From: Corallococcus caeni
Lineage (GTDB): Bacteria > Myxococcota > Myxococcia > Myxococcales > Myxococcaceae
Reading direction: 5' to 3' (one strand)
Assembly: GCF_036245885.1 (NCBI RefSeq)
Contig: NZ_BTTX01000008.1
DNA: 64,000 nucleotides
Shown here: positions 34,792 through 54,186 of the stretch, one piece after another
How positions within the stretch are numbered: the stretch's first letter is position 1
How the letters are laid out: the number at the start of each line of letters is the position of its first letter
Program-made: the position numbers and the translations under genes
Notes under the pieces: model-generated
Databases searched by the model: none
What the model saw: only the letters and a program-made list of their open reading frames with translations
Told to the model about the DNA's origin: nothing

Positions 34792-35970
<1,179 letters not shown>

Positions 35971-36195
35971 TTATACCCAGCCCGCCCGTCCGGAGGCACC
36001 CGCTTCCTGGGGGACGCCTGCCTGGTCCCCGGGAGGCCGTTCCCCCGGGGAAGGCTCCGGTTTCCCTACCCGGCCCCCGGGGGCGGGGTCGGAAGCCGGC
36101 ATTTCCGGGGCGTGGCGGCGGTTACATTGGGTCCTCCGGTACACGATTCACCGCGCGTCTTGGGTCGCCGCGCCATTTCCGTTACAAGCCGCCGC

Positions 36196-37795
36196 CATGT
36201 TCAACGTCATCAACGTCTCCAAGGCCTACGGGCCCAAGAAACTTTTCGAGGAGGTCAACGTCGCCTTCTCGCCGGGCCGTCGCTACGGCCTGACCGGTCC
36301 GAACGGGGCCGGCAAGTCCACGTTCATGAAGATCCTCGCGGGTGACGAGGAGCAGGACATGGGCGAGATCATCCGCCCGCGGAAGCTGGGCATCCTGCGC
36401 CAGGACCACTTCCGCTACGAGAACGACCGCGTCATCGACGTGGTGCTGATGGGCAACCGCCACCTGTGGGCGGCCATGGACGAGAAGAACAAGCTCCTGG
36501 CCAAGGCCGACATCACGGAAGAGGACGGCAACCGGCTGGGTGAGCTGGAAGGCGTCATCGCGGAGGAGGACGGCTATTCAGCGGAGAGCGACGCGGCCAC
36601 GCTGCTGGCGGGCCTGGGCATCGAGGAGTCCTTCCACGAAGAGCCCATGCGCCAGCTCACCGGCGGCCTGAAGCTGCGCGTGTTGCTCGCGCAGGCGCTG
36701 TTCGGCAAGCCGGAAGGACTGCTGCTGGACGAGCCCACGAACAACCTGGACATCGACTCCATCCGCTGGCTGGAGAACTTCCTCCATGCGTACGAGGGCG
36801 TGCTGATCACCATCAGCCACGACCGGCACTTCCTGAACTCCATCTGCACGCACATCGCGGACATCGATTACGAGACCATCATCCAGTACACGGGTGGTTA
36901 CGACGACATGGTCCGGCAGAAGTCGCAGCTGCGGACCCGGGTCGAGTCCGAGACGGCGGAGAAGAAGAAGAAGATCGCCCAGCTGCAGGACTTCGTGGCG
37001 CGCTTCCACGCGGGCACGCGCGCGTCGCAGGTGCAGAGCCGCATCAAGCAGATCGACAAGCTGAAGACGGAGGACCTGAAGCGCTCGAACATCGCGCGGC
37101 CGTTCATCCGGTTCGACCAGAAGGTGGTCAGCGGCCGTCAGACGCTGATGTTCGAGGGCCTGAAGAAGTCCTTCGACGGGGTGCCGGTCATCAAGCCGTT
37201 CAAGGGGCTGGTCTGCAAGGGCGAGCGCATCTGCGTCATCGGCCGCAACGCGGTGGGCAAGTCCACGCTGGTGAAGATGCTGGCGGGGCAGCTGGAGCCG
37301 GACGCGGGCACCATCACCTGGGGTCACCAGGCGACGGTGGGCTACCTGCCGCAGGACCACCACGGCGTCATCCACAAGGGCACGACGTGCTTCGGCTACC
37401 TCCGGGAGATCAGCGAGAAGCTGACCAACGAGGAGATTTCCGGCGTGCTGGGCCGGATGCTCTTCTCCGGTGAGGAGCGGATGAAGCCCACGGACACGCT
37501 GTCCGGTGGTGAGACGGTGCGCGTGCTGTTGTCCAAGCTGATGATCATGCAGGACAACGTGCTCATCCTGGACGAGCCGACGAACCACCTGGACCTGGAG
37601 TCCATCGCGGCGCTGGCGGAAGGCCTGTCGAAGTTCGAAGGCACGGTCATCTGCGTGACGCACGACCAGGAGCTCATCTCCGAGGTCGCGACCCGCATCT
37701 GGAGCCTGGAGCAGGGCAAGGAAGTGCTCGACTTCAACGGCCCGTATTCGGAGTTCATGGAGAAGCACGCGGACGCGGCGCAGAAGCGCCGGTAG
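36196..37795 (+). CDS. ABC-F family ATPase (EttA/YbiT-like translation factor), two ABC cassettes
   Basis: The ATG at 36196 gives two Walker A sites (GPNGAGKST; GRNAVGKST), two LSGG signatures, and a linker with a charged helix. No TM domain. Confidence 0.9.
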
Positions 37796-37824: not shown

Positions 37825-37869
37825 AAACGCCGCCCGTTTCCGGTCCTCCGGAAGCGAGGCGGCGTTTTC
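37825..37869 (+). terminator. intrinsic terminator (10-bp GC stem aaacgccgcc/ggcggcgttt followed by TTTTCG) after the ABC-F gene; also copy 1 of a ~60-nt repeat
   Basis: aaacgccgcccgtttccggtcctccggaagcgaggcggcgttttcg. A related copy lies at ~47262-47330. Confidence 0.6.
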
Positions 37870-37978
37870 GTGGGCTGTCCATCCCTCTTCCGGGTGATGT
37901 CCCTTTCGTGGGGAATGGGCCAGAACCTGGGGTGCCAGGTCGTCCCACCCATGACGACCCGGGGGGGCGAAGACATTC

Positions 37979-40900
37979 ATGACTCCGCACGACTCGGTCC
38001 TGCTGAAAGAGCTTCAGCGGCAACGCACCCGGTTGCTGGATTTGAGCGCAACCAACCGGCTCCTCCACTTCAAGCACACGGCCAGGACGTCGCTGCGAAT
38101 CGTGGATGAACTTCCAGGTGTCGTCTTCGAGCGGCTGAGCAACCACCGCGCGCTCACGTTCCTCCCGGTGACGCCACCGGAGCAGGACTCCGAGGAACAG
38201 GAGGACTTCGACCCCGCCGCCGCGACCGTGGTGTTCTCGATGACCGAGGAGGTCCCCAGCAAGGACGCCCGGCAGAAGCTGCTGCTTCAACAGGCGAAGC
38301 GGCTGGGCATCGACACCCGGTATGAGCTGCCCAAGGCGGCCCCCACGGAGAGCGGCACCCCTCCTCGCAAGCATCAGGACCGCCACCTGCAGACGTTGTA
38401 CTTCCCGGAGGATCTGGAGGGCCACCTGCACCGCCTCCAGGGGCTCGCGCAGACAGCCATCCAGGAGACCGGAGCCAACCTGCTCCACTTCGTCTTCGGG
38501 TTCCTGCGCTGGTACGAGTCTGGTGATACCCGGCAGGAGAAGCCGCGCAGCGCACCGCTCGTGCTCATGCCGGTGAGTCTCAAGCGCGGCCAGGCCCACC
38601 CTGACACCCAGGTACACGCTTACGAGGTCGACTACAACGAAGGCGAGTCCATCGAACTGAACCTCACGCTCCAGGAGAAGCTGAGGCAGGAGTTCGGCAT
38701 CACGCTGCCGACCTTCTCCGCCGAGGAAGGCCTGGAGGCGTACTTCGACAAGGTGACGGCGCTGCTCAAGGGCCTGCGCCCCGGGTGGGGGCTGGAGCGG
38801 CAGGTCACGCTGACACTGCTGTCCTTCGGGCGGCTCCTGATGTGGCGGGACCTGGAGCCCACCCGATGGCCGCAGAACAGTTCCCCGCTGGCCAACCCGC
38901 TCGTTCGCACGCTGATGGGAGGACAGGCGCAGGCGAATGAACCGGGAGGAGGCGCAGGAGGCGGAGGCGGCCTCAGGGAACGCCGAAGCGAGGTCTACGA
39001 CCTGGACTCGCCGGAGCTGAATCCTCCACCCCTCATCACGGACGCGGACAGCAGTCAGCACAGCGTGCTGGTGGACGTGCTCCGGGGTGAGAACCTGGTG
39101 GTGCAGGGACCGCCCGGCACCGGGAAGTCACAGACCATCACCAACCTCATCGGAGCGGCGCTGGCGGCGGGCAAGACCGTGCTGTTCGTCACGCAGAAGC
39201 TGGCGGCGCTGGAGGTCGTCTCACGCCGCCTCCAGCAGGCGGGGCTGGGTGAGTTCTGCCTGGAGCTGCACAGCCACAAGACCCAGAAGCAGCAGTTCAT
39301 GGAGGACCTGCGGCGAAGGCTCAACCTGGACGCAGGCGCGAGCGCTCCCCGGCCGCTCACCGAACAGGTCTCGAGCGCCGCAGGCATCCTGCGCGCGCAT
39401 ACCGAGCGGATGCACAAGCCATTCGGGGCGCTCGGCATGTCACCGCACGACGTGTTCTGGAAGGTCAGTCGCGCGGAGGCGGAGCTGGGAGAAGCAGTCG
39501 TCGAGTTGGAGGGCCTGCGCTTCGAGGGTGCGGAGACCATGTCCTCCACGGCGCTGGCGGAGGTCCGCGACACGGTTCGGGGCCTCGCTGCGCAGTTGGG
39601 GGACGTTCGCCGCGTCGCTCCCCTCCTCTGTGCCCACCCCTGGGCGGGGGTGACGAACGACGCGCTGACGGACAAGGACCGCCAGACACTCGTTCAACGG
39701 ATCTCGGCCTGGGAAGAGTCCACGCTGCTCCTGGAGAAGGCGCTGGCTGCGTTCACAGCCCGAACTGGCGTCACCCCCAGATCGAGCGTGCTTGCGGCGG
39801 ATACCCTGGTTTCCAACGTCCGGGTCCTTCCGCCCCTCCCGGAGGGGGCTCCTCCAGAGCTGATCCCTACCCTGCTTGATGCCACGCAGCGCGAGGGATT
39901 GCGCGCCCTGCTCGATGCCATCGAGTCGGTCCAGGCGCGGTGGGCGGGGCTGGAGGCGGGCTGGCGTGCCCGGGAGGATCTGACCGTACCCGCCGTGCGT
40001 GACGCGCAAGCCATCCTCGACACGGCCCTGCGCCTGCTTTCGCCAGACACCACGCTCGTCACGCTGACACGCGCGCATGAAGCGGTGGATGCAGCAGCCC
40101 GGGCCCTGGCACAGGGACGCCGGTTCATCGCCGCCGTGGCCTCATGCCTGGAGGTGGACGTCACGCCCTGGACGCCCCAGCAGCTCCAGACGTTTGTCCG
40201 CGTCGTCGAAGCGATGGCGGTCCTGGATGACGCCGCCCTGGAGTGGCGGGACGCGCGTTGGGTCGAGCGCGAGGCCGAGGAGTTGCTTCGGAAGGCCGGC
40301 AGCACCTGCTCGGAGCTGAAGGACCAGGCGCGAGCGCTCGCGGTGCGCTTCATGCCCGAACTCGTTCCTCCGCTCACGACGCTCAAGGCACATGCCGTCG
40401 CGGTTTCGACCGCGCCCTTCATCCCCTGGCTCTCGGGTGCATGGCGTGCGGCGAGGCGGGACTTCCAGGCCATGTCCCACGGCGTCCGTCCGACGCGGCC
40501 CGTGTTGCTCCAGGGTTACACCGACCTGCTGGCGCACCACGCGGCGCGGGAGCGATTCCACGAGGACGCGACCTTGAAAGCGACCCTGGGCGCTCGCTTC
40601 CAGGGAGTCGATACGCGTTTCGACCGGATTCTTTCGTGGTTGGACGCCTACCGGAACGTCGATGCATTGCTCCTTTCGCTGGGAGAGCGAGGGGCGGAAC
40701 TCCGCCGCGCGGTGTTGGAGCGGCCGGCGAGCCATTGGCAGGAGGCCCTGGCGAAGACCCGCGTGTGGAGTGACGAGTTGCTCCAGGCCCGCGACGTGAG
40801 CACTACCGTGCAGGAAGCCGCGACGCGCATGGGTCTGCCGCACGCACCCTGGAATACCGAACCCTGCGGCAAGGCCCAGGACAGCCTCGACGCCTTGCTG

Positions 40901-43183
40901 AAGCACCTGGGTGAGGTCCTGAGCTGGGCACGGAAGGGAGATGCCCCGCCGTCCTTGACCCTTTCCCAGCTCCAGGGACAGCTGCGCCGGGTGCGCGACG
41001 CCTGCGAAGCCGAGGACCGGCTGGAAGCGCATGCCCCGGCGGCGGGATTACCAGGGATTGAATACCGGGGTCGGAAGACGTCCCTCGCGGGCCCTCGAAG
41101 CGCCCTGCGCCATGTCGACGTCCTCTTCGCGGCGCCACTGCCCGAGGGGCTGGTGGAGTGGCTGCTGAGGAAGGACACGCCACGGAGGCACGCGGACCTG
41201 CTCACCGCCACGCATGACGTGGAGGTAGCTCTCACCGCCTATAGCCAGTCCGCCAGTCAGGCCTGGGAGCTGGGAAGGATGGCACCCGGCACCTGGGAGG
41301 AACCCGCCGCCGAGAAGCCACTCCAGGCGACGGTCATGCGCCTGCGCCAGGCTCGAAGCCAGTCCGCGACGCTCGCGGCCTGGTGCGCGTACCAACGGCA
41401 GAGGCGCGCCGTCGCGCGAGCGCGGAGCACCCTGGGGTTCCTGGAGCGCGTCGACACCCGTCCTGGCCTGAAGCCTGAGAGGTTGGTCACGGCCTTTGAC
41501 GCCGTCTTCTTCCGCTCCCTGGCGGAAGCCATCCTGCGAGACCAGCCGGAGCTCGATCAATTCACGGGCGCGGTTCACGCCTCCCAGCGTGAGGAGTTCG
41601 CCCGCCTGGACACGCATTGCATCGCAAAGCAGGGCCGATACCTGGCGCGTCAACTCAGTCAGCGTCCGGTTCCTCCCGGCGTGTCGTCGGCAAAGGTTGC
41701 GGGCATGACGGAGACGCATCTCCTGCGGCACGAGCTGGGCAAGAAGCAGCGGCACCTCCCAATTCGCGAGCTGGTGGCACGCGCCGGCAGTGCACTCCAG
41801 ACGTTGATGCCCTGCTTCATGATGGGGCCGCAGTCCGTCGCCCAATACCTGCCCGCCGGGCAGCTGACCTTCGACCTGGTCGTGATGGACGAGGCCAGCC
41901 AGATGCGTCCCGAGGACGCGCTGGGAGCCATTGCCCGAGGTCGGCAATTGGTGGTGGTGGGCGACCCGGAGCAGCTTCCTCCCACCAGCTTCTTCGCGCA
42001 GGTGGAGCAGGAGGACGTCGAAACCGAGGGCGAAGCGGGAGACGAGGTCCAGGGTCCATCCTTCCTGGAGGACTCGGAGAGCATCCTCACGGCGGCGGCG
42101 GAACGGTTTCCCATGCGCATGTTGCGTTGGCATTACCGGTCCCGCCACCCCTCGCTCATCGCCTTCAGCAACCGCGAGTTCTACAACGGCGACCTCATCA
42201 CCTTCCCCGCGCCCGGCGAGCAGTTGGACGGGCTGGGCCTCCACTTCCACCGCGTGGAGCAGGGATTGTACGAGTCCAACCGGAACGTTCCCGAGGCCCG
42301 CGAGGTGCTGGCGGCGGTGAAGGCGCATGCGCGTACGCGCCCGGAGCAGAGCCTGCTGGTCGTCACGTTGAACTCGAAGCAGCGAGAGCTCATCGACGAC
42401 CTGGTGACCGCCGAGGAGAAGAACGACGCGGCCCTCCGGGCCTTCCTGGCGAAGTGGGAGAAGTCCCCCATGCCCTTCGACGTGAAGAACCTGGAGAACG
42501 TCCAGGGCGACGAGCGCGACGCCATCTTCGTGTCGGTCACGTTCGGTCCCGACAAGAACGAGCGCTTCCGGATGAACTTCGGGCCCATCAATCAAGCGGA
42601 CGGGTACCGCCGGCTGAACGTCCTCTTCACGCGGGCGCGGTGCGCGCTGACGGTGTTCGCGTCCTTCGACCCGTCGGAGCTCAAGGTCCAGGAAAGCAGT
42701 CCCCGCGGGATGCGCGTCCTGCAGCGATACCTGTCCGAAGCCAAGGGAGAGAAGGTGGCGCACGGCGTGGGCAGCGGTCGGCCACCCGACTCCGACTTCG
42801 AGATTGCCGTCGCGAAGGCGCTCGTCGCGCGGGGATTCGAAGTGGTCCCGCAGGTGGGCGTCGCGGGTTATTTCATCGACATGGCCCTGCGGCATCCTCG
42901 GCAACCGGGCCGTTACGTCCTTGGCGTCGAGTGTGACGGAGAGAGGTATCACTCGTCACGTTCCGCCCGGGACCGGGACCGCCTCCGGGATCAGGTGCTG
43001 AAGGGCCTGGGATGGAGGCTGCACCGCATCTGGTCCACGGACTGGTTCCGCTCGCCATCGGAAGAGGTCGCCCGGATCGTCGCGCACGTTGAAGAGGTGC
43101 TTCGGGAAGAGGCGGCGGAGCTGCCGGCCGTGGTGCGCGAGGAGCCCGCGGCGGAGAACCAGATGCGCGCCGTCAGCGCCTGA
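37979..43183 (+). CDS. 1734-aa DNA helicase-related protein: DUF4011-like N-terminus, Upf1-like SF1 helicase core (AAA_11/AAA_12), DUF3320, and a C-terminal DUF559 (Vsr/restriction-endonuclease-like) nuclease
   Basis: Motif I VVQGPPGTGKSQTITNLIGAALAAGKTVLFVTQ, motif II LVVMDEASQ, VVVGDPEQLPPT, YRSRHPSLIAFSNREFYNGDL, and a C-terminal VPQVGVAGYFIDMALRHPRQPGRYVLGVECDGERYHSSRSARDRDRLRDQVLKGLGWRLHRIW (PD-(D/E)xK Vsr-like). GC is lower than the core by eye. Confidence 0.85.
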   Translation: MTPHDSVLLKELQRQRTRLLDLSATNRLLHFKHTARTSLRIVDELPGVVFERLSNHRALTFLPVTPPEQDSEEQEDFDPAAATVVFSMTEEVPSKDARQKLLLQQAKRLGIDTRYELPKAAPTESGTPPRKHQDRHLQTLYFPEDLEGHLHRLQGLAQTAIQETGANLLHFVFGFLRWYESGDTRQEKPRSAPLVLMPVSLKRGQAHPDTQVHAYEVDYNEGESIELNLTLQEKLRQEFGITLPTFSAEEGLEAYFDKVTALLKGLRPGWGLERQVTLTLLSFGRLLMWRDLEPTRWPQNSSPLANPLVRTLMGGQAQANEPGGGAGGGGGLRERRSEVYDLDSPELNPPPLITDADSSQHSVLVDVLRGENLVVQGPPGTGKSQTITNLIGAALAAGKTVLFVTQKLAALEVVSRRLQQAGLGEFCLELHSHKTQKQQFMEDLRRRLNLDAGASAPRPLTEQVSSAAGILRAHTERMHKPFGALGMSPHDVFWKVSRAEAELGEAVVELEGLRFEGAETMSSTALAEVRDTVRGLAAQLGDVRRVAPLLCAHPWAGVTNDALTDKDRQTLVQRISAWEESTLLLEKALAAFTARTGVTPRSSVLAADTLVSNVRVLPPLPEGAPPELIPTLLDATQREGLRALLDAIESVQARWAGLEAGWRAREDLTVPAVRDAQAILDTALRLLSPDTTLVTLTRAHEAVDAAARALAQGRRFIAAVASCLEVDVTPWTPQQLQTFVRVVEAMAVLDDAALEWRDARWVEREAEELLRKAGSTCSELKDQARALAVRFMPELVPPLTTLKAHAVAVSTAPFIPWLSGAWRAARRDFQAMSHGVRPTRPVLLQGYTDLLAHHAARERFHEDATLKATLGARFQGVDTRFDRILSWLDAYRNVDALLLSLGERGAELRRAVLERPASHWQEALAKTRVWSDELLQARDVSTTVQEAATRMGLPHAPWNTEPCGKAQDSLDALLKHLGEVLSWARKGDAPPSLTLSQLQGQLRRVRDACEAEDRLEAHAPAAGLPGIEYRGRKTSLAGPRSALRHVDVLFAAPLPEGLVEWLLRKDTPRRHADLLTATHDVEVALTAYSQSASQAWELGRMAPGTWEEPAAEKPLQATVMRLRQARSQSATLAAWCAYQRQRRAVARARSTLGFLERVDTRPGLKPERLVTAFDAVFFRSLAEAILRDQPELDQFTGAVHASQREEFARLDTHCIAKQGRYLARQLSQRPVPPGVSSAKVAGMTETHLLRHELGKKQRHLPIRELVARAGSALQTLMPCFMMGPQSVAQYLPAGQLTFDLVVMDEASQMRPEDALGAIARGRQLVVVGDPEQLPPTSFFAQVEQEDVETEGEAGDEVQGPSFLEDSESILTAAAERFPMRMLRWHYRSRHPSLIAFSNREFYNGDLITFPAPGEQLDGLGLHFHRVEQGLYESNRNVPEAREVLAAVKAHARTRPEQSLLVVTLNSKQRELIDDLVTAEEKNDAALRAFLAKWEKSPMPFDVKNLENVQGDERDAIFVSVTFGPDKNERFRMNFGPINQADGYRRLNVLFTRARCALTVFASFDPSELKVQESSPRGMRVLQRYLSEAKGEKVAHGVGSGRPPDSDFEIAVAKALVARGFEVVPQVGVAGYFIDMALRHPRQPGRYVLGVECDGERYHSSRSARDRDRLRDQVLKGLGWRLHRIWSTDWFRSPSEEVARIVAHVEEVLREEAAELPAVVREEPAAENQMRAVSA

Positions 43184-43196
43184 ACAGGAGACAACC

Positions 43197-44762
43197 ATGA
43201 CCACGATGATTGCCGTTGGACTGGGCGTATTGAGTCTGTTGCTCCTCGGGTTGTGGTTCCAGACACGAAGTCGGCTCAAGGCCGTCCAGGAGCGCTTCAA
43301 GCCCATCCTGGACCTGGAGGCCGAACGGCGGCGGGTGGCCGAGGAGTTGACGCGGGCGCGCACGGACGCGGACGCTGCGCTGGCCGCGGAGCAGAAGCGG
43401 GTCCGCGAAGAGTTGGCGAAAGCCAGGAGCGAGGCGGACAACGCGCTGGCGGCGGAGCAGAAGCGGGTGGAAACCCAGCTGGCCCGGGCCAAGGCGGACG
43501 TGGAGCAAGCCATCACGGCCGAACAGGGCCGGGCGAAGGCGGAGCTGAGCCGGATCCGTGAAGAGACGGCGAAGACAACCCAGAGCGCGACACGCGCCAT
43601 GGAAGAGGCGGAAGCGCGGCGAAAGCAGGCGAACACCGAGCGAACCAGCCTGGAGTCAGGCCTCGCCCGGTTGAAGGCCGAGCTGAAGGCCCTTGAGGAA
43701 GAGGAGGTCCTGCTCTCCTTTGGCTTCTACAAGCCGGTGTACGCCCTCTCGTCCGTGAAGGAATACGAGGACCGCCTGGAGAGGCTCCGCGATTCTCAGA
43801 AACAGATGCTGAAGAACAAGGAAGCCGCCACGTGCTCTCTCCAGTGGGAGGTCAATGGCAGCAAGGCGGAGGGCAAGAAGCAGACGGACCGTACCTTGAA
43901 GCTGATGCTCCGGGCCTTCAATGGCGAAGCGGATGCGTGTGTCGCGAAGGTTTCGTACAAGAACGTGAAGGCAATGGAGACGCGCATCGAGAAGGCAGCT
44001 GCCGCCATAAATGGCCTTGTGGAGATACAGCGGTGTGTCATCGACAGGCGCTACGTCAAGCTCAAGGTCGAGGAGCTGATGCTCGCATATGAGCACTCGG
44101 AGAAGGTGCAACAGGAGCGGGACGAACAGCGCCGCATCCGGGAGCAGATGCGAGAGGAGGAGGCCGCCCAGCGCGAGCTGGAGAAGGCGAAGCTGGAGGC
44201 GGAGCGCGAGTCGAAGCGTGACGCCGAGGCCCTGGCGAAGGCGAAGGCGGACTACGATCGGGCAAAGGGCTCCGAGCAGCAGAAGTTGCTGGAACGCATC
44301 GCCGAGCTGGAGCGCCGCGTGGCCGAAGACCTGGAGAAGCAGCGAGCCATCTCCCAGGCACAGCTCACGCGGACAGGGCACGTCTACGTCATCTCCAACA
44401 TCGGCTCCTTCGGGGAGGGCGTCTACAAGCTGGGGATGACGAGGAGGCTCGTGCCCCAGGACCGCATCGACGAGCTGGGGGATGCATCCGTGCCCTTCGA
44501 GTTCGACGTCCACGCCATCATCCGGACCTCGGATGCCCCGGCCCTGGAGAACGCACTCCACAAGACGTTCGCGAACAGGCGCGTCAACCGCATCAATGAG
44601 CGCAAGGAGTTCTTCCGCGTCAGCCTGGATGAGATCGCCCAGGCCGTGCGAAAGCACCACGGGGAGTTCGAGCTGACCCAGCTTGCTGAGGCCGCGGAGT
44701 ACCGTAAGACCTTGGCGCTCCAAGAGGAGGAGCAGGGCGGTCGACGCGAGCGGGCCGCTTGA
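43197..44762 (+). CDS. membrane-anchored DUF4041-like coiled-coil protein with a C-terminal T5orf172 (Mug113/GIY-YIG-like) nuclease domain
   Basis: An AGGAG RBS precedes the ATG at 43197. N-terminal TM helix (MTTMIAVGLGVLSLLLLGLWF), a long E/R/A/K coiled-coil, and a C-terminus GHVYVISNIGSFGEGVYKLGMTRRLVPQDRIDELGD...FEFDVHAIIRTSDAPALENALHKTFANRRVN typical of T5orf172. It starts 14 nt after the helicase stop. Confidence 0.8.
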   Translation: MTTMIAVGLGVLSLLLLGLWFQTRSRLKAVQERFKPILDLEAERRRVAEELTRARTDADAALAAEQKRVREELAKARSEADNALAAEQKRVETQLARAKADVEQAITAEQGRAKAELSRIREETAKTTQSATRAMEEAEARRKQANTERTSLESGLARLKAELKALEEEEVLLSFGFYKPVYALSSVKEYEDRLERLRDSQKQMLKNKEAATCSLQWEVNGSKAEGKKQTDRTLKLMLRAFNGEADACVAKVSYKNVKAMETRIEKAAAAINGLVEIQRCVIDRRYVKLKVEELMLAYEHSEKVQQERDEQRRIREQMREEEAAQRELEKAKLEAERESKRDAEALAKAKADYDRAKGSEQQKLLERIAELERRVAEDLEKQRAISQAQLTRTGHVYVISNIGSFGEGVYKLGMTRRLVPQDRIDELGDASVPFEFDVHAIIRTSDAPALENALHKTFANRRVNRINERKEFFRVSLDEIAQAVRKHHGEFELTQLAEAAEYRKTLALQEEEQGGRRERAA

Positions 44763-44802
44763 ACTCGAACCTGCCTGCGCTTCTGATAGCGTTCGCCTCC
44801 CG

Positions 44803-46560
44803 ATGAGTTCCTACCCGTTCCTGCATCCGAAGGATGCGCTCCCAAATGCTGTCATTGCTGCCTCTAAAAACCGGAAAATCGCGTTTCTAGTGGGCTCTCC
44901 CTTGTCGACGCAGGAACGAGCCGACGCCCCTCAGGTTCCTGGGGTGGATGCGATGTTGGATCTCATCCGCGAGTACGTTCCGGCCGGATTCCAAGCGAAA
45001 TTCGACACGGAGCGCGAGTACACCAAAGAAAACAAATACCAATGGGCCATGCGCTTCGTGCAAGGCCTTGGTGACAAGGATGTCTCCGAGAAGGTTGTTC
45101 GGGAGGCGGTGCTTCGCGCACGGGTGGACCGCCAACGCGATGGAGCGGCGACCGACGACCAGCTGGATCTGGACCATGGCGGATGGGCCTTGCCGCCCGC
45201 GACGGAGCACCTCGGTAGATTGCTGGTGGAAAGAGCTGAGACGTTTGGTCCTGTCTTGACCACGAACTTTGATCCTCTCATCTCGGCATCGGTGAAGGTG
45301 GCTGGCGGCGATTTCCATCGCACCATCGTGGCCAGCGACATCCCGTTCGGGCAGACAGTCCCCGCCTCATCCAAATCCACACACATCATCCATCTTCACG
45401 GCTACTGGCACCGTTCGCCTACGTTACACACGGGTATCCAGCTTGGTCGCGAGCGCAGACACGTCTCCGCAGAGCTGATCCAGATTCTTCAAGACCACAC
45501 GCTGGTCGTGATCGGGTACGGCGGGTGGGATGACGTCTTCACCCAGACCCTCGCAACCATTGACATCGACCGACACAAGGACGTCGACATCCTCTGGGGG
45601 TTCTACGGAGAAGAAGACGCCGTGATTGAGGCCCGCAATCCAAATCTCTTCAGCAGAGTCGCCAATCTGAGAGGTAGCAAAGGGCTTCGCTGCTATGGCG
45701 GAATCGACTGCCATAAGTTCTTCCCCGACCTGCGGAAACAATTTGGCGCGGCCAGCGCCCAGCTCTCGAACCCTCGAACCGCGGGCCAACCGACACCGCC
45801 ACCCTCCACGCGATCCGACACAAGCGCCAAAGCCACGGTGCAGACTGCGCCGACGTCGCACAGCCCCCCGAAACCTCCTGAGCCCGCGCCACCCGTGCCG
45901 GCTGGCTCAACGCCAGCGCCGAGCACCGCGACTGTCACGGTCTCCCCAGTCATCACGGTCTCTCCTGTCATCCAAGTCCCAGCACCGCCTGTTACACCGA
46001 GTCGTTCGGGCTCCAGTCGGCTCGCGGTCGTCATCGCGGGAGGGGTGATCGCAGGGGGGATTGCCGTGGTCTCGCAGCGACCTGAAAGCGGCAAGGGATC
46101 ACCACCGCTGACGGATGTGCGTCCCATCGAGCAGCCACCTTCCGCCTTCGTGCCCATCGCTCCAGGTGCACAGATCAGGTCTGTGCGCCAGCAGCACCAG
46201 GTCGTGCCTGCGTCAGAATCCGAGCGTGGATCGCGGATCGCTCAGCTTCCGAGAGGTCGCTACGCCTTCCTTCGGCTGGATTCGATTCCGACCTACAACG
46301 CCAACACTCCGACCTACGGGAACCTGCCAGACGGAATCGAGGTTCACCGTGTACGAGCCACTGGCGAACTCTTCCTCGTTGGCTATGCCGAACCTCAAAC
46401 CGTTACGGCGCTCGCATCTACAACCCCCGCGCCCATCGTTCTCGCGGCCACGCCAGGAGGACGGCGCACCCAGGTTGCGAGCGTTCCTGTGATCAGGATG
46501 TCAACGGCCGAAGTGCGGATGGACAAAAGCACCCGCGTTCTCGTGCTTCAACTCAACTAA
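44803..46560 (+). CDS. SIR2_2-type (Sir2-like NADase fold) domain protein with a TM segment and a Pro-rich C-terminal region
   Basis: SIR2_2 hallmarks IAFLVGSPLS, VLTTNFDPLIS, IIHLHGYW and LVVIGYGGWDD. A TM helix (LAVVIAGGVIAGGIAVV) follows. GC is markedly lower (~58% by eye) with atypical codons (aaa, gat, ttg). Confidence 0.75.
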   Translation: MSSYPFLHPKDALPNAVIAASKNRKIAFLVGSPLSTQERADAPQVPGVDAMLDLIREYVPAGFQAKFDTEREYTKENKYQWAMRFVQGLGDKDVSEKVVREAVLRARVDRQRDGAATDDQLDLDHGGWALPPATEHLGRLLVERAETFGPVLTTNFDPLISASVKVAGGDFHRTIVASDIPFGQTVPASSKSTHIIHLHGYWHRSPTLHTGIQLGRERRHVSAELIQILQDHTLVVIGYGGWDDVFTQTLATIDIDRHKDVDILWGFYGEEDAVIEARNPNLFSRVANLRGSKGLRCYGGIDCHKFFPDLRKQFGAASAQLSNPRTAGQPTPPPSTRSDTSAKATVQTAPTSHSPPKPPEPAPPVPAGSTPAPSTATVTVSPVITVSPVIQVPAPPVTPSRSGSSRLAVVIAGGVIAGGIAVVSQRPESGKGSPPLTDVRPIEQPPSAFVPIAPGAQIRSVRQQHQVVPASESERGSRIAQLPRGRYAFLRLDSIPTYNANTPTYGNLPDGIEVHRVRATGELFLVGYAEPQTVTALASTTPAPIVLAATPGGRRTQVASVPVIRMSTAEVRMDKSTRVLVLQLN

Positions 46561-46566
46561 AAGACA

Positions 46567-47247
46567 ATGAAACTCACCCATCGAATCCTTACTTGCCTTG
46601 GCTTGGCGTCCTTCTTGTTGCTTGCCGCATGTGGGCCCGAGGACCTCAGCCCCGGCGGCCCCGACCCCATCACGGATGACCCGCCTCCGCTCACCGAGCT
46701 TTGTACCGCGGAGAGCTGTGAAGGCTGCTGCGACCCAACCACCAACAAGTGCGTCATGACTCGCACCGCCGACGCATGCGGTCCGAACGGCAGCACCTGT
46801 TCCAAGTGCACAACCGGGATGATGTGCCACCCTTCCAAGCAGCAGTGCTACACCCCCACCATCCGCACGAAGATCCAGCCCCTTCGTGCGCAGATCGCGC
46901 CGCTGGATCCCTCTGACAACAGCGACTGGGACGTTGATGGCTCGCCGCCGGATGTCGTGATTCAGCTGTCGTGCCCCAACACGCCAGCCGCCGTACCCCC
47001 TTCGGAGGAAGTTGAGAGCTTCACCCCCACCTGGACGAAGGGCTCATGCGACGTCCTCAGTACCGATCTGCTTTCGGCCCCCATCCAGTTCACCGTCATT
47101 GATGTTGACGCCATCTTCGACGACCCGATTGCGTCGGCGCAGTACCAGATGACCCGCGCCGACATCGACCGTGGCGTCGTGGAGCTCACGGGTTCGAGTG
47201 CATTGCTCTCCGTGGCCTTCCAGGTCACCACCTACTACGCCGAATAG
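46567..47247 (+). CDS. Cys-rich lipoprotein (paralogue of the gene at 51768..52388)
   Basis: Lipobox LLLAACG. An N-terminal Cys-rich module (CTAESCEGCCDPTTNKCV...CSKCTTGMMC). The C-terminal domain has DWDVDGSPPDV. It starts 7 nt after the SIR2-like stop. Confidence 0.7.
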   Translation: MKLTHRILTCLGLASFLLLAACGPEDLSPGGPDPITDDPPPLTELCTAESCEGCCDPTTNKCVMTRTADACGPNGSTCSKCTTGMMCHPSKQQCYTPTIRTKIQPLRAQIAPLDPSDNSDWDVDGSPPDVVIQLSCPNTPAAVPPSEEVESFTPTWTKGSCDVLSTDLLSAPIQFTVIDVDAIFDDPIASAQYQMTRADIDRGVVELTGSSALLSVAFQVTTYYAE

Positions 47248-47261
47248 CCCGTCACCGCACT

Positions 47262-47330
47262 GCGCTCCCAAGCAGTGTCACCGCCGCCCGCTTCCAGTCC
47301 GTCCGGAAGTGAGGCGGCGGGTTCGTCTCG
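47262..47330 (+). repeat. copy 2 of the ~60-nt terminator-like repeat (about 80% identical to 37808-37875)
   Basis: caagcagtgtcaccgccgcccgcttccagtccgtccggaagtgaggcggcgggttcg compared with caaggcagtgccaaacgccgcccgtttccggtcctccggaagcgaggcggcgttttcg. Both copies lie immediately 3' of a plus-strand stop codon. Confidence 0.55.
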
Positions 47331-47518
47331 AGCCGCTACTCCTCACGAGGGATGCACAGGAGGAGTGAAACCGGTCAGAACCCTCTCCTCTACTTGGAGA
47401 TGAGGACTCACCCCTCCTCCTCCCTGCGGTTGAATCTTCCCATCATCTCCACGTCCGGAAGGGACGGGAGTCGTTGGCACCGCGGGCCAGTCCACGCGAG
47501 CCATTTCTGGGGGAGCGC

Positions 47519-48886
47519 ATGTCCAATCAGAGCTTCGAGGTCATCTCGGTCCCACCTCAGCCACGGCGGGTCATTCTGGTCTCGATTGATTGGACGCGCG
47601 ACAAGGATCCTCGCCTTCCGCTGGGACATGCTTCCATCGTCGCGGCACTGCGACATGCAAACGTCGACGTGCGAGCGTTCTCCTTTGCCGTCAATCGCTC
47701 TGACTTCAGTGAGGAGCACATCCTGTGGAGCGTGCTTGAAAGTGCACGGGGACTTGAGGCTCGGGACGTGGACCTGGGCCTTGGCGTCTACGTGTGGAAC
47801 GACCGGGTGGTGAAGAGGCTTCTGGGGGCGGTCCGCCGGAGCGGATTCGCGGGACGTATCATCCTCGGAGGGCCACAGGTCTCCTACGCGGGACCGGGCC
47901 TTGAGCAGCTCTATCCCGAGGCGGATGGATTCGTCCGGGGTTATGGCGAAGAGGCCATGGTGGCGATTGCCGCTACGTCCGAGCGGGTCCGGTTTCCAGG
48001 AGTCCATTGGGCTGGCCAGTTGGATGCTGGCGTCCAAGCACAGGCGAAGCTGGAGACGCTTGCTTCTCCCTTCCTCGAAGACGTGATTGAACTTTCAGGG
48101 GAGCAACGGTTCATCCGGTGGGAAACCCAGCGAGGGTGTCCCTTCCGCTGCTCGTTCTGCCAGCATCGGGAGGCTGGCAGCCGGTTGCGTCGCCGCGATC
48201 TCCCCATGGCACGACTTGAGGAAGAGATTGAGCTGTTCGTGTACTCGGGAGTGAACGACATCGCCGTGCTGGATCCGCTCTTCAATCTCGGGGATCACGC
48301 GCTGGCGGTGCTGCGGACTTTCCAGCGGCTTGACTATCGCGGACGGCTATCTTTGCAGTGCCACTTCTCGACGTTGGATGATGAGTTCCTCGACGCCTGC
48401 GAAGGGCTCGCGGTCCGGCTTGAGTTTGGCCTGCAGACCATCCACGAGAAGGAGGCACGCGCCGTGGAGCGCGTGAATCATCTCGAGAAGGTGGTGGAAG
48501 GAGTCCGCAAGCTCCACGCGCGCGGCATCCCTTTCGAGGTTTCCATCATCTTCGGGCTGCCCGAGCAGACGTTGGAGTCCTTTCGACAAACGGTCGACTT
48601 CTGCCTCCGTCGGCAAGTGCCCGTGCTCAAGGCGTTTCCCCTCATGTTGCTACGGGGAACCCAACTGGAACGTGAGCGGGCACGATGGGGGCTGGAGGAG
48701 AATGACGCCCCCATCCCAAGCGTCATCCGCAGCCACACGTTCAATGAACAGGAGTGGAGTCGGATGGAGGCGCTCGCGGAAGCACTCCGCCAGACTGAAG
48801 GCAGGCATCCGGATTGTGTCGAAGCCTTGGAGGTGCGGGTGGTCTCCCTTCCGGACACTTCCGGCTGGTGGTCACCAGCGGCATAG
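47519..48886 (+). CDS. B12-binding-domain radical SAM enzyme
   Basis: An N-terminal Rossmann-like B12-binding region, the CxxxCxxC motif (QRGCPFRCSFCQH), and a TIM-barrel-like remainder. The ATG at 47519 follows GGGGGAGCGC. Confidence 0.85.
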   Translation: MSNQSFEVISVPPQPRRVILVSIDWTRDKDPRLPLGHASIVAALRHANVDVRAFSFAVNRSDFSEEHILWSVLESARGLEARDVDLGLGVYVWNDRVVKRLLGAVRRSGFAGRIILGGPQVSYAGPGLEQLYPEADGFVRGYGEEAMVAIAATSERVRFPGVHWAGQLDAGVQAQAKLETLASPFLEDVIELSGEQRFIRWETQRGCPFRCSFCQHREAGSRLRRRDLPMARLEEEIELFVYSGVNDIAVLDPLFNLGDHALAVLRTFQRLDYRGRLSLQCHFSTLDDEFLDACEGLAVRLEFGLQTIHEKEARAVERVNHLEKVVEGVRKLHARGIPFEVSIIFGLPEQTLESFRQTVDFCLRRQVPVLKAFPLMLLRGTQLERERARWGLEENDAPIPSVIRSHTFNEQEWSRMEALAEALRQTEGRHPDCVEALEVRVVSLPDTSGWWSPAA

Positions 48887-49005
48887 GGACCTGACGGCAG
48901 CTACGCCTCGACAGGCGGCTTGGTGCGGGTCATGTAGCTTCATGCGGTCAGTGTCCCCTTATGATGCCGGAGGGGGACGGGCATCAGTGGGTATGATGCA
49001 GGGCC

Positions 49006-50457
49006 ATGTACCCGAGACGCCGTCTCCTGGCCCGAGGACCGTGGTTGTTTGATCTCAGACCGCAGCGGCTCATCGTCTTCCACGGAGCCGACGGCGTGCG
49101 CCGGGAGGCCAGTGGAGACGTGCCGGATCATCCGTCCGCGCCCGTGGTGCTCGCCGCGCTCAATGAGGGACAGGACGTCTGGGTGGGAAGCGGGGATCGG
49201 CGTGTCTTCTCCGTGGGGGCCGGCGCGAGCGCTCCCGTCCAGGCCTTTCCGAAGGAGTGCTTCGATCTCACCTGCGATGGAGACCGGCTCATCGGAACGG
49301 TGGTGGACAGCGCCCACAAGCTGACCACCCTCTTCACGACCGATGGGTCCGGGCAGCGATGGGAGCCCATGACCTTGCCCAAGCCCGTGCTCGCCACGCA
49401 CGGGTACGGATACTCCGAGGGGCGCCCCCTCAGTCAGTCCCCCGATGGGGCGTTCCTCGACACGAGCCCTTTTGGAATCACCGTCCTGGAGAAGGGGCGG
49501 GGCCGCGTCTACGTGCTCCGCGCGGGGGCTGCTCAGCCGGAGGGCGCGCTCCAGGTGGAGCCGGGTGGTGAGGAGGACAACTGGCGGGCCGTGGCCACTC
49601 CCCACGGCGTGCTCCTCCTGCTCGTCGTCAACTACCGGCAGACGGCGCTCCTCCATTTCGCGCTCGATGGCACCCTGCTCGGCTCCATCCCGGAGAGCGA
49701 GGATGAGGATGATGCTGCGGATGACCTGACCTGGAGCGGTGCCGGGGTGTGCGTCCTCGACGCGGCCCGGGCGCTCCTCTTCGTCCAGGACAAGGCCCTC
49801 CTGGTGTCCCTGCCCGGGCTCCAGGTGCTCGAAACGCTCGTCGGGGAGTGGCCCCGCTTCGTTACCGTGACTCCCGCGGGGCCTGACCGGTGGTGGGTGG
49901 GCGCCGAGGACAGTGACGCGCTCTTCCTGCTCACCGCCGAGCCCGGACACCCCTTGCGCCTCCACGCCTCGAACCGCCTGGTGAACCCAGGCGCGCCGCT
50001 CATGCACGTGGGCTACAAGACGCCCGCGTTCCACTGGACCGAGCACTCCTCGGGGCCACTGACCGTGTCCGCGCCCGTGACCGAGACGTGGCGGGCGGTG
50101 GTGCGCAATGACGGGACCTCGTGTGAGGCCGTGCGGATCCGGGTGTCCGGGGCGCTCGTCGGCGCTCGCGTGGTGGACGTGAGCGTGCGGTATCGCGGTC
50201 AGCCACTCCCGATGGTGAATGAGAACCGCGTGAACCTCGTGGGGGTCTCCGCCGGATTGGAGGCAGGCGCTGTCGCGGAGCTGGAGGTGACCTTCAAGCC
50301 CCGGAGCGAGGGCTCGGGACCGCTGACCATCACCGTCGAGCCGTGCTCCTGGCAATCGCAGGCCAAATACTGGCAGTGGCAGGACAAGGAGGAGCCTCGC
50401 GTCCTCACGGTGACGGGCCATCCGGCATCCGCCTTGTTCCCGCTCACGGTGGAGTAG
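49006..50457 (+). CDS. hypothetical protein (483 aa), beta-rich
   Basis: Coding-like ORF with no recognisable catalytic motif. Its 3' end overlaps the convergent pseudokinase gene by 14 nt. Confidence 0.5.
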   Translation: MYPRRRLLARGPWLFDLRPQRLIVFHGADGVRREASGDVPDHPSAPVVLAALNEGQDVWVGSGDRRVFSVGAGASAPVQAFPKECFDLTCDGDRLIGTVVDSAHKLTTLFTTDGSGQRWEPMTLPKPVLATHGYGYSEGRPLSQSPDGAFLDTSPFGITVLEKGRGRVYVLRAGAAQPEGALQVEPGGEEDNWRAVATPHGVLLLLVVNYRQTALLHFALDGTLLGSIPESEDEDDAADDLTWSGAGVCVLDAARALLFVQDKALLVSLPGLQVLETLVGEWPRFVTVTPAGPDRWWVGAEDSDALFLLTAEPGHPLRLHASNRLVNPGAPLMHVGYKTPAFHWTEHSSGPLTVSAPVTETWRAVVRNDGTSCEAVRIRVSGALVGARVVDVSVRYRGQPLPMVNENRVNLVGVSAGLEAGAVAELEVTFKPRSEGSGPLTITVEPCSWQSQAKYWQWQDKEEPRVLTVTGHPASALFPLTVE

Positions 50458-54020: not shown

Positions 54021-54186
54021 TCCCCTGCCGGGCAGGACCATGCCTTCTCCTCCTCGGAGGAGATTGGGCATTCCATCCCCCGGTCGGCTTCCTCCCCTGG
54101 GACGTTGCCTGCCCCCCTGCCTGCTCACCGCGCAGGGCGCATGGAATGACAAGCCCCCGTCCCAAGCCTGCCCGGCCGCCCGAAAC

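What the first reader, a model, noticed from the sequence alone, without database searches (positions are those of the whole stretch)
37979..43183. 1734-aa DUF4011/Upf1-like helicase fused to a DUF3320 + DUF559 (Vsr/PD-(D/E)xK-like) nuclease module
Complete SF1 motifs are present (GPPGTGKSQT, VMDEASQ, GDPEQLPPT, YRSRHPSLIAFSNREFYNGDL). There is a very long helical insert between the N-terminal region and the helicase core. The C-terminus carries a Vsr-fold endonuclease motif (VLGVECDGERYHSSRSARDRDRLRDQVLKGLGWRLHRIW). Helicase-nuclease fusions of this size are typical single-protein or core components of defence systems, and this one is immediately followed by T5orf172 and SIR2 genes. I do not recognise this exact architecture as a named system.
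Basis: partly seen in the sequence, partly recalled or inferred. Interest (0 to 1): 0.6.

Follow-up and report, generated by a model that had tools for sequence, protein, structure and literature searches.

The report
Hhe-family anti-phage helicase-nuclease in Corallococcus
This 1734-residue gene is a divergent member of the already named Hhe family of single-protein phage-defence helicase-nucleases, sitting in a variable defence hotspot of a myxobacterial chromosome, so it is a sound but largely ordinary defence-gene call.

Summary
The ORF at 37979-43183 (+), 1734 aa, is real and every quoted motif is present. Pfam finds DUF4011, a split AAA_11/AAA_12 SF1 core and a C-terminal Vsr-fold nuclease (MTES_1575). 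DUF3320 is absent.

The architecture is not unnamed. It is the Hhe family (Gao et al. 2020). The protein aligns end to end with PGAP-named Hhe from E. coli and Vibrio (34-36% identity) and with the NCBIfam Hhe model (1403 bits). It falls below the curated Hhe cutoff (2000) and the ProA cutoff (1123 vs 1500), so it represents an unnamed branch.

The source is Corallococcus caeni. The gene is accessory. Among six Corallococcus genomes with an identical upstream ABC-F protein, two carry it, one carries only the downstream SNIPE gene, and three carry neither. Distant relatives lie beside CRISPR-Cas, restriction-modification, GmrSD, WYL and Hma genes.

All catalytic motifs are invariant and dN/dS is 0.12-0.26. 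The ~860-aa insert is all-helical, conserved in length and fast-evolving. The DUF4011 domain has no solved structural analogue.

The neighbour is SNIPE (PD-lambda-1), a separable stand-alone system.

Verdict: new member of a known kind, with low to moderate interest.

The parts
37829..37869 (+). Terminator-like GC-rich hairpin plus T-run after the ABC-F gene. It marks the left edge of the variable hotspot.
   Evidence: Read from the sequence. The ~110 nt after the ABC-F stop are conserved between the window, L102 (Hhe present) and L105 (Hhe absent). The sequences then diverge.
37979..43183 (+). Hhe-family helicase-nuclease gene, 1734 aa
   Evidence: ORF. NCBIfam Hhe_antiphage 1402.6 bits, aa 12-1724 against model positions 2-1700 of 1797. 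PADLOC PDC-S37 1245 bits and Hhe 928 bits. 100% identical to an NCBI protein of Corallococcus caeni.
37979..38944 (+). N-terminal DUF4011 domain (aa 1-322), alpha/beta, with invariant motif E163-x-G165-x-N167...G174...W178
39014..39298 (+). RecA1 N-terminal half (aa 346-440): DSSQHS motif, Walker A GPPGTGKSQT, motif Ia
   Evidence: Invariant in 60 sequences. AAA_19 and AAA_30 hits. 94-100% identical among Corallococcus orthologues.
39299..41848 (+). All-helical insertion in RecA1 (aa 441-1290), about 40 helices arranged as helical bundles
41849..42013 (+). RecA1 C-terminal half (aa 1291-1345): motif II DEASQ and motif III GDPEQLPPT
   Evidence: AAA_11 second stretch. Invariant D1304, E1305, G1328, D1329, Q1332.
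42104..42673 (+). RecA2 domain (aa 1376-1565): motifs IV-VI (WHYRS, QGDER, RRLNV..R)
   Evidence: AAA_12 hit. Invariant columns.
42779..43093 (+). Vsr-fold endonuclease (aa 1601-1705), with E1608, D1634, E1651-C-D1653-G and H1658
   Evidence: MTES_1575 126-129 bits. These residues are invariant or >=90% conserved. The IECDG motif aligns with E. coli, Vibrio and Ralstonia relatives.
43197..44762 (+). Neighbour, a separate system: SNIPE/PD-lambda-1 homologue, 521 aa. N-terminal hydrophobic helix, coiled coil, DUF4041, T5orf172/GIY-YIG.
   Evidence: PADLOC PD-Lambda-1 511 bits. Pfam. Sequence. Starts 13 nt after the Hhe stop, with an AGGAG upstream.
44803..47247 (+). Neighbours in the same hotspot: a SIR2_2 protein with an internal hydrophobic segment (44803-46560) and a 226-aa lipoprotein-like protein (46567-47247)
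   Evidence: Pfam SIR2_2 32 bits. Sequences. The pair recurs in L102, L103 and L105.
47519..48886 (+). Neighbour in the same hotspot: B12-binding radical SAM protein
   Evidence: PADLOC PDC-M51A 505.8 bits. Pfam Radical_SAM and B12-binding. Present in the alternative cassettes L101, L104 and L106.

Best explanation
The gene encodes a functional member of the Hhe family. This is a stand-alone anti-phage protein that combines four parts:
- an N-terminal DUF4011 domain;
- an Upf1-like SF1B helicase motor;
- an ~860-residue helical-bundle module inserted into the first RecA domain;
- a C-terminal Vsr-fold DNA endonuclease.

It is an accessory gene in a variable defence hotspot of Corallococcus caeni, between a conserved ABC-F gene and a BrkB-like gene. 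It shares the hotspot with SNIPE, a SIR2/lipoprotein pair and a radical-SAM candidate system.

Proposed mechanism (inferred, not shown):
1. The fast-evolving helical insert and/or the DUF4011 domain keep the enzyme silent until they sense a consequence of phage DNA replication or metabolism.
2. The ATP-driven motor then translocates along nucleic acid.
3. The Vsr-type nuclease cuts DNA, stopping phage replication, possibly at a cost to the cell.

Shown here: family membership by full-length homology, intact catalytic motifs, purifying selection, accessory distribution and defence neighbourhoods.

Taken from the literature: anti-phage activity and nuclease dependence of E. coli Hhe.

Inferred: the substrate, the trigger and the order of events.
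For: Homology:
- The NCBIfam Hhe model matches in one stretch over aa 12-1724 (1402.6 bits).
- BLASTP against a PGAP-named Vibrio Hhe gives 35% identity over 1794 columns, insert included.
- MAFFT gives 34% identity to E. coli Hhe.
- The Vibrio Hhe has the same Pfam architecture.

Intact chemistry:
- Walker A, motifs II-VI and the nuclease residues E1608, D1634, E1651, D1653 and H1658 are invariant or >=90% conserved in 60 proteins at 34-90% identity.

Selection:
- dN/dS is 0.12-0.26 overall, 0.00-0.22 in the RecA and nuclease domains (0.00-0.14 in the RecA1 halves and the nuclease), and up to ~0.3 in the insert and N-domain.

Accessory status:
- Six Corallococcus genomes encode an identical ABC-F protein. 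Two have Hhe>SNIPE>SIR2, one has SNIPE>SIR2 only, and three have neither.
- Two Myxococcus genomes have neither gene.
- dS of Hhe and SNIPE is 0.44-0.91, against 0.11-0.18 for the flanking core genes.
- GC is 62-69% in the block against ~72% in the surrounding sequence.

Defence neighbourhoods of distant relatives:
- Type I-E CRISPR-Cas, GmrSD, WYL/HNH/toxin-antitoxin, Hma plus DUF1156/DUF499, type IV REase plus a Mokosh-like helicase, and type I RM and WYL recurrent in metagenome loci.
- E. coli hhe sits beside DUF262 proteins and IS elements and was detected in 284 of 5426 complete genomes.

Stand-alone nature:
- No conserved partner was found in 91 loci.

Literature:
- Hhe is active against lambda, T3, T7 and PhiV-1, and a nuclease point mutant is inactive (bioRxiv 10.1101/2022.06.16.496414).
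- T7 DNA-metabolism genes and Bas63 g40 act as triggers, and g40 is toxic only when hhe is present (bioRxiv 10.1101/2024.10.10.617714).
Against: - The score is below the curated equivalog cutoffs of both named branches: Hhe 1403 < 2000 and ProA 1123 < 1500. Functional equivalence to E. coli Hhe is therefore extrapolated across ~35% identity.
- No experiment exists for this branch or for any myxobacterial member.
- In Pseudomonas aeruginosa a large DUF4011 gene is reported in every isolate as a core flank of hotspot cDHS1 (PMC10250203). Family members are therefore not always accessory.
- Two of six sampled distant contexts were not clearly defensive.
- The sensing role assigned to the insert and DUF4011 rests only on evolutionary rate and the lack of catalytic signatures.
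Confidence: 0.82

Rival explanations
1. The Hhe-like protein and the adjacent SNIPE nuclease, perhaps with the membrane SIR2/lipoprotein pair, work together as one multi-gene system. For example, SNIPE cuts at the injection site and creates the ends or nicks on which the helicase-nuclease loads.
For: - The two genes are adjacent in three different genomic backgrounds: the Corallococcus syntenic locus, strain GXIMD 01537 at another locus, and a Myxococcaceae MAG with only 41% Hhe identity.
- In the window only 13 nt separate them, with a ribosome-binding site.
- Both show elevated dS relative to the flanks and roughly parallel divergence.
Against: - They are separable. L105 has SNIPE without Hhe.
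- None of the 80 metagenomic Hhe-like loci, nor loci L009 and L011-L018, has a SNIPE gene.
- In L010 the SNIPE gene is on the opposite strand, convergent.
- E. coli Hhe and E. coli SNIPE each protect alone.
- The SNIPE paper mentions no helicase partner.
Confidence: 0.08
2. The protein mainly restricts or competes with other mobile elements (plasmids, integrative elements), or stabilises the island that carries it, rather than defending against phages.
For: - Relatives are found on 496 plasmid records, many conjugative or mobilizable.
- The block has lower GC and a history different from its flanks.
- An IS66 element sits in an alternative cassette at the same hotspot.
Against: - No integrase, transposase or tRNA lies in or next to the block in the window.
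- The validated family member has an anti-phage phenotype.
- The neighbours are phage-directed systems such as SNIPE.
Confidence: 0.07
3. It is a housekeeping Upf1-like DNA-repair or RNA-surveillance helicase that merely sits next to defence genes.
For: - The SF1B core resembles IGHMBP2, Sen1 and Dna2.
- The Vsr fold is known from mismatch repair.
- The gene occupies the same locus in at least six Corallococcus genomes.
- A DUF4011 gene is core in P. aeruginosa.
Against: - Presence/absence varies among strains with identical flanking ABC-F protein, and the gene is absent from this locus in Myxococcus.
- Synonymous divergence is 3-5 times that of the flanks.
- E. coli hhe was detected in only ~5% of complete genomes.
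- Distant relatives sit in defence islands.
Confidence: 0.03

Closest known systems
Hhe (HheA; Gao et al. 2020; NCBIfam NF042953; PADLOC Hhe)
   Same: - Same domain order: DUF4011, SF1 core split by a ~900-aa insert, AAA_12, MTES_1575/Vsr nuclease.
- No DUF3320.
- Full-length alignability, including the insert.
- Single gene without a fixed partner.
- Accessory, island-borne distribution.
   Different: - Only 34-36% identical to E. coli and Vibrio Hhe.
- Scores 1403 bits against the 2000-bit equivalog cutoff. A true Vibrio Hhe scores 2195.
- Lacks the ~85-aa N-terminal and ~100-aa C-terminal extensions of those proteins.
- PADLOC ranks PDC-S37 above Hhe for it.
- Untested host range in a myxobacterium.
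ProA (NCBIfam NF058533) / PADLOC candidate PDC-S37
   Same: - Same DUF4011, split SF1 and MTES_1575 backbone.
- PDC-S37 is the top PADLOC hit, 1245 bits.
- 34% identity to a Ralstonia protein that passes the ProA cutoff.
   Different: - That branch carries DUF3320 after the nuclease (Ralstonia aa 1705-1751).
- The window protein has none, and its match stops at position 1350 of the 1550-position PDC-S37 profile.
- The ProA score of 1123 is below the 1500 cutoff.
- I could not find the paper behind the name ProA.
Mokosh MkoA/MkoC and other Upf1-like defence helicases
   Same: Upf1-like AAA_11/AAA_12 motor. There are weak PADLOC hits to MkoA (99 bits) and MkoC (68 bits) over aa 1297-1594.
   Different: The similarity covers the helicase core only. 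There is no PLD nuclease partner, and Mokosh has no DUF4011, no 900-aa insert and no Vsr nuclease.
Helicase-nuclease defence proteins such as Nhi and Hachiman HamAB
   Same: The general logic is shared: a helicase sensor or motor coupled to a nuclease effector that responds to phage replication or DNA damage.
   Different: The helicase families and nuclease folds differ, and no sequence or domain match was found here. This is a functional analogy only.

Membership tests
Hhe (Gao et al. 2020; NF042953) | N-terminal DUF4011 domain | tested here: met
   Pfam PF13195, 116.2 bits, aa 18-235. The motif E163/G165/N167/G174/W178 is invariant.
Hhe (Gao et al. 2020; NF042953) | Upf1-like SF1 helicase core with intact ATPase motifs | tested here: met
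   AAA_11 and AAA_12 above cutoff. Walker A and motifs II, III, IV, V and VI are invariant.
Hhe (Gao et al. 2020; NF042953) | ~900-residue insertion between Walker A and motif II | tested here: met
   921 aa in the window against a family range of 899-964. The insert aligns through with the Vibrio and E. coli Hhe proteins.
Hhe (Gao et al. 2020; NF042953) | C-terminal Vsr-fold endonuclease with conserved acidic/His residues | tested here: met
   MTES_1575 126-129 bits. E1608, D1634, E1651, D1653 and H1658 are conserved. The IECDG motif aligns with E. coli Hhe.
Hhe (Gao et al. 2020; NF042953) | Score at or above the curated equivalog cutoff (2000 bits) | tested here: not met
   1402.6 bits. A PGAP-named Vibrio Hhe scores 2194.8.
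Hhe (Gao et al. 2020; NF042953) | Stand-alone gene without an obligate partner | tested here: met
   The largest neighbour family occurs in 7 of 91 loci. SNIPE adjacency is restricted to Myxococcaceae and is separable.
Hhe (Gao et al. 2020; NF042953) | Protects against phage and depends on the nuclease | not testable with these tools
   Known only for E. coli Hhe.
ProA (NF058533) / PDC-S37 | Score at or above the curated ProA cutoff (1500 bits) | tested here: not met
   1123.2 bits. The Ralstonia relative scores 1521.4.
ProA (NF058533) / PDC-S37 | DUF3320 module after the nuclease | tested here: not met
   No hit at E<=1 on the C-terminal 234 aa. It is present in the Ralstonia relative at aa 1705-1751.
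ProA (NF058533) / PDC-S37 | Full-length match to the PADLOC PDC-S37 profile | tested here: inconclusive
   It is the best PADLOC hit at 1245 bits, but the best stretch ends at profile position 1350 of 1550. Ralstonia reaches 1545 of 1550 with 1798 bits.
Mokosh | MkoA-type helicase with a PLD nuclease (MkoB, or fused) | tested here: not met
   Only core-helicase similarity, 99 bits. No PLD domain in the protein or its neighbours.
SNIPE / PD-lambda-1 (the neighbouring gene, not the finding itself) | N-terminal membrane anchor, DUF4041 and a GIY-YIG (T5orf172) nuclease | tested here: met
   PADLOC PD-Lambda-1 511 bits. DUF4041 and T5orf172. Hydrophobic N-terminus MTTMIAVGLGVLSLLLLGLWF. Architecture as described in PMC13190303.

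The most novel reading that the evidence does not exclude
In Myxococcaceae the Hhe-like helicase-nuclease and the membrane nuclease SNIPE are inherited and exchanged as a pair. They may act as a two-layer module. SNIPE cuts DNA at the injection site. The cytoplasmic helicase-nuclease, sensing through its fast-evolving helical insert, then loads on the resulting ends or on replication intermediates and finishes off genomes that escape. A weaker version is that this unnamed third branch of the DUF4011 superfamily has a trigger or substrate different from that of E. coli Hhe.
Probability: 0.1. Interest if true: 0.5.

Novelty: new member of a known kind. Interest (0 to 1): 0.27.

Why it matters
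The result has practical value.

- It corrects the annotation of a protein that NCBI names only "DUF4011 domain-containing protein".
- It shows that the curated Hhe and ProA models leave a large intermediate branch unnamed. That branch contains thousands of proteins, many from soil and sediment metagenomes.
- It defines a chromosomal defence hotspot, between ABC-F and BrkB, in Corallococcus and Myxococcus. The hotspot could be mined for new systems, such as the membrane SIR2/lipoprotein pair and the radical-SAM cassettes.

Two parts of the Hhe family remain mechanistic blanks. The DUF4011 domain is confidently modelled but has no solved analogue. The insert is conserved in length but variable in sequence. 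Neither blank is specific to this window.

Tried and rejected
- **DUF3320.** I searched the whole protein at E<=0.01 and the C-terminal 234 aa at E<=1. It is absent.
- **SNIPE as an obligate partner.** I built an HMM from nine Myxococcaceae SNIPE homologues and searched all six-frame ORFs of 98 loci. Hits came only from the Myxococcaceae loci already known.
- **Any other conserved partner.** All-against-all clustering of ORFs within 5 kb of 91 Hhe-like genes found no family in more than 7 loci.
- **Origin of the name ProA.** Three literature searches found nothing relevant.
- **Mapping the published E1731A mutant.** In the E. coli allele I retrieved, residue 1731 is Ala, and the nearest Glu is E1727 of the IECDG motif. 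The equivalence to window E1651 is therefore probable but not proven.
- **Promoter and terminator scan of 37.5-50.6 kb.** It gave no sigma-70-like sites and fewer terminator-like sites than in shuffles. This is uninformative for a 70% GC myxobacterium.
- **tRNA or integrase at the island borders.** None was found.
- **PD-T4-6 hits of the Ser/Thr kinase at 50444-51985**. I did not treat these as evidence of a defence system, because such kinases are abundant in myxobacteria.
Full report
**1. Observation**

The window has an ATG-initiated ORF at 37979..43183 (+) of 1734 codons. Its third-position GC is 0.84, typical of coding sequence in this ~72% GC genome.

Pfam assigns the following:
- DUF4011 at aa 18-235 (116 bits).
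- AAA_11 in two separated stretches: the Walker A region around aa 360-418, and aa 1297-1337.
- AAA_12 at aa 1376-1561.
- A C-terminal REase_MTES_1575 domain at aa 1607-1703 (126 bits).

It reaches 21.4 bits on the isolated C-terminus. The same stretch is far better described by MTES_1575.

DUF3320 is absent even at E<=1, and only 31 residues follow the nuclease. The downstream genes are, as stated, a DUF4041+T5orf172 gene and a SIR2_2 gene.

**2. Identity**

The protein is 100% identical to an NCBI protein of Corallococcus caeni, named only "DUF4011 domain-containing protein". So the window is myxobacterial.

Library scores for the window protein:
- NCBIfam Hhe_antiphage (NF042953) matches in a single stretch, aa 12-1724 against model positions 2-1700 of 1797, at 1402.6 bits. 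The curated cutoff is 2000.
- NCBIfam ProA (NF058533) gives 1123 bits against a cutoff of 1500.
- PADLOC gives PDC-S37 1245 bits and Hhe 928 bits.

I calibrated these numbers on annotated relatives:

| Protein | NCBIfam Hhe (cutoff 2000) | NCBIfam ProA (cutoff 1500) | PADLOC | DUF3320 |
|---|---|---|---|---|
| PGAP-named Vibrio Hhe | 2195 | 1098 | Hhe 1471, PDC-S37 1203 | absent |
| Ralstonia megaplasmid protein | 1073 | 1521 | PDC-S37 1798, full profile length | present, aa 1705-1751 |
| Window protein | 1403 | 1123 | PDC-S37 1245, Hhe 928 | absent |

Two distant homologues, P0019 and P0081, behave like the window protein.

The window protein aligns end to end, insert included, with:
- Vibrio Hhe at 35% identity;
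- E. coli Hhe at 34% identity.

It therefore belongs to the Hhe/ProA superfamily. It has Hhe-type architecture but sits on a branch that neither curated model names.

Hhe was described as a single-gene system by Gao et al. (2020). From papers held in the library:
- It is active against lambda, T3, T7 and PhiV-1, and a nuclease point mutant is inactive (10.1101/2022.06.16.496414).
- A phage knockout screen found T7 DNA-metabolism genes and Bas63 g40 as triggers, and g40 is toxic only in the presence of hhe (10.1101/2024.10.10.617714).

**3. Is it functional?**

I aligned 60 family members at 34-90% identity.
- Invariant helicase positions: Walker A (G377-T386), motif II (D1304, E1305), motif III (G1328, D1329, Q1332), WHYRS (1384-1388), QGDxR (1509-1513) and RRLNV..R (1544-1552).
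- Nuclease positions E1608, D1634 and D1653 are invariant. E1651 and H1658 are >=90% conserved.

Among eight syntenic or near-syntenic Myxococcaceae orthologues, dN/dS is 0.12-0.26. It is 0.00-0.22 in the RecA and nuclease domains and up to ~0.3 in the insert and the N-terminal domain. The gene is under purifying selection and its catalytic sites are intact.

**4. Anatomy of the unannotated parts**

*N-terminal domain.* AlphaFold2, using the family alignment, gives a confident alpha/beta model of aa 1-322 (pLDDT 86, pTM 0.81).
- Foldseek against viral models finds nothing meaningful.
- An exhaustive HMMER search finds 5,660 cluster representatives at E<=0.001. In the 150 listed, the domain lies at or near the N-terminus, mostly of 1,600-2,100-aa proteins.

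*Insert.* The region between the RecA1 halves (aa ~441-1290) is modelled with pLDDT 89 as about 40 helices and no strands.
- Pfam finds nothing.
- The distance from the Walker A lysine to the motif II aspartate is tightly conserved at 899-964 aa. This region nevertheless has the lowest sequence conservation.
- This fits a structural scaffold or sensor surface that is free to diversify. That reading is an inference.

**5. Core or accessory?**

*Synteny.* In six Corallococcus genomes the gene lies directly after the same ABC-F gene and is followed by the SNIPE homologue. Genes further downstream differ.

*Presence/absence.* Six Corallococcus assemblies encode an identical ABC-F protein:
- Two have ABC-F>Hhe-like>SNIPE>SIR2.
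- One has ABC-F>SNIPE>SIR2 with no Hhe-like gene.
- Three have neither and instead carry a radical-SAM/ATPase cassette, once with an IS66 element.

Myxococcus stipitatus and Myxococcus sp. SDU36 have unrelated genes between ABC-F and BrkB.

*Left boundary.* The ~110 nt after the ABC-F stop, including a terminator-like hairpin at 37829-37869, are shared by Hhe-positive and Hhe-negative strains. The sequences then diverge.

*Evolutionary history.* Synonymous divergence of the Hhe-like and SNIPE genes is 0.44-0.91, against 0.11-0.18 for the flanking ABC-F and TGT-like genes. GC falls from ~72% to 62-69% across ~35-50 kb. The pair therefore has a history different from its flanks.

*Wider context.*
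- Of six distant homologues looked up, four are embedded in obvious defence loci: type I-E CRISPR-Cas, GmrSD, WYL/HNH/toxin-antitoxin, and Hma with DUF1156/DUF499. Two are ambiguous.
- L010 adds a type IV restriction enzyme and a Mokosh-like helicase.
- Across 91 loci the recurrent neighbours are type I and type IV restriction components and WYL regulators.
- E. coli hhe was detected in 284 of 5,426 complete genomes, next to DUF262 proteins and IS elements.
- Relatives occur on 496 plasmid records.

*Caveat.* In P. aeruginosa a large DUF4011 gene is reported in every isolate as a flank of core hotspot cDHS1, next to a radical SAM gene (PMC10250203). Fixation in a species is therefore possible.

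**6. The neighbour**

The gene at 43197-44762 matches PADLOC PD-Lambda-1 at 511 bits. It has an N-terminal hydrophobic helix, a coiled coil, DUF4041 and a T5orf172/GIY-YIG domain. That is the architecture of SNIPE, a membrane nuclease shown to cut phage DNA during injection (PMC13190303). It starts 13 nt after the Hhe stop, behind an AGGAG.

The Hhe-like/SNIPE adjacency recurs at the Corallococcus locus, at a different locus in strain GXIMD 01537, and in a Myxococcaceae MAG whose Hhe-like protein is only 41% identical.

I nevertheless treat the two genes as separate systems that travel together:
- In that MAG the SNIPE gene is convergent.
- One Corallococcus strain has SNIPE without the Hhe-like gene.
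- None of 80 metagenomic Hhe-like loci has SNIPE.
- Both proteins work alone in E. coli.

Cooperation remains a minority possibility.

**7. Mechanism**

- Shown: an intact Upf1-like ATPase/helicase core, an intact Vsr-fold nuclease, purifying selection and a defence-type distribution.
- From the literature on E. coli Hhe: anti-phage activity that needs the nuclease, and activation linked to phage DNA-metabolism genes.
- Inferred: the variable helical insert and/or DUF4011 hold the enzyme inactive and sense a replication-associated cue. ATP-driven translocation then delivers the nuclease along DNA. Polarity is expected to be 5'->3' for this helicase class, from general knowledge of Upf1-like SF1B enzymes.
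- Not tested: substrate, trigger and cell fate.

**8. Verdict**

This is a correct defence-gene call for a family that already has a name. It is best filed as a new, divergent member of the Hhe kind rather than a new architecture. Interest is modest. The residual value lies in the unnamed branch, the Corallococcus hotspot and the still unexplained DUF4011 and insert modules.

Noticed in passing
window 44803-47247 (+); also L102, L103, L105, L005, L006, L008: A 585-aa SIR2_2 protein has a Pro/Ser/Thr-rich linker, an internal hydrophobic segment (LAVVIAGGVIAGGIAVV) and a C-terminal domain. Six nucleotides later comes a 226-aa protein with a lipoprotein-type signal (…LLLAAC) and a Cys-rich region. 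The pair recurs next to SNIPE in several Corallococcus genomes. It matches no named PADLOC or NCBIfam system, only weak SIR2 hits. It is a candidate membrane-anchored SIR2 two-gene defence module.
   Followed up: partly
window ~37900-52000, between ABC-F (35780-37795) and the BrkB-like gene (52980-54215): This interval is a chromosomal hotspot with alternative gene cassettes in different Corallococcus and Myxococcus genomes. One cassette is Hhe/SNIPE/SIR2. Another is a 145-aa protein, radical SAM and an AAA_21-methyltransferase, once with an IS66 insertion. In Myxococcus the interval holds unrelated genes. No integrase or tRNA is present. It resembles the 'core defence hotspots' described in P. 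aeruginosa.
   Followed up: partly
window 47519-48886 (+) and 49045-50457 (+): The B12-binding radical SAM protein matches PADLOC candidate PDC-M51A (506 bits). The following 470-aa protein has no match in any library. A similar ~483-aa protein follows the radical-SAM cassette in L101, L104 and L106. No PDC-M51 partner was detected, so its status as a system is unclear.
   Followed up: no
window 50444-51985 (-): A Ser/Thr protein kinase hits many PADLOC PD-T4-6 profiles (up to 191 bits). Such kinases are very common in myxobacteria, and this one is conserved at the right side of the hotspot, so the hit is probably not evidence of a defence system.
   Followed up: no
L010 12900-17620 (-): In a Myxococcaceae MAG, a type IV methyl-directed restriction enzyme next to the Hhe-like/SNIPE pair is split into two halves (PADLOC profile positions 16-310 and 303-941). 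An oppositely oriented 447-aa ORF lies between them, which looks like an insertion that has disrupted the gene.
   Followed up: no
NCBIfam NF058533 / PADLOC PDLC05009; L100 5929-11559: The NCBIfam family 'ProA' and the PADLOC candidate PDC-S37 appear to describe the same DUF3320-bearing branch. The Ralstonia megaplasmid protein passes the ProA cutoff and matches PDC-S37 over its full length. I could not find a paper for the name ProA in the held library.
   Followed up: partly
window 43197-43700 (SNIPE homologue, aa ~40-130): The coiled-coil region after the membrane helix contains repeated segments of the type 'A(L/I)xAEQKRV…'. These suggest internal duplication in the variable N-terminal part, which in E. 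coli SNIPE contacts the phage entry receptor.
   Followed up: no
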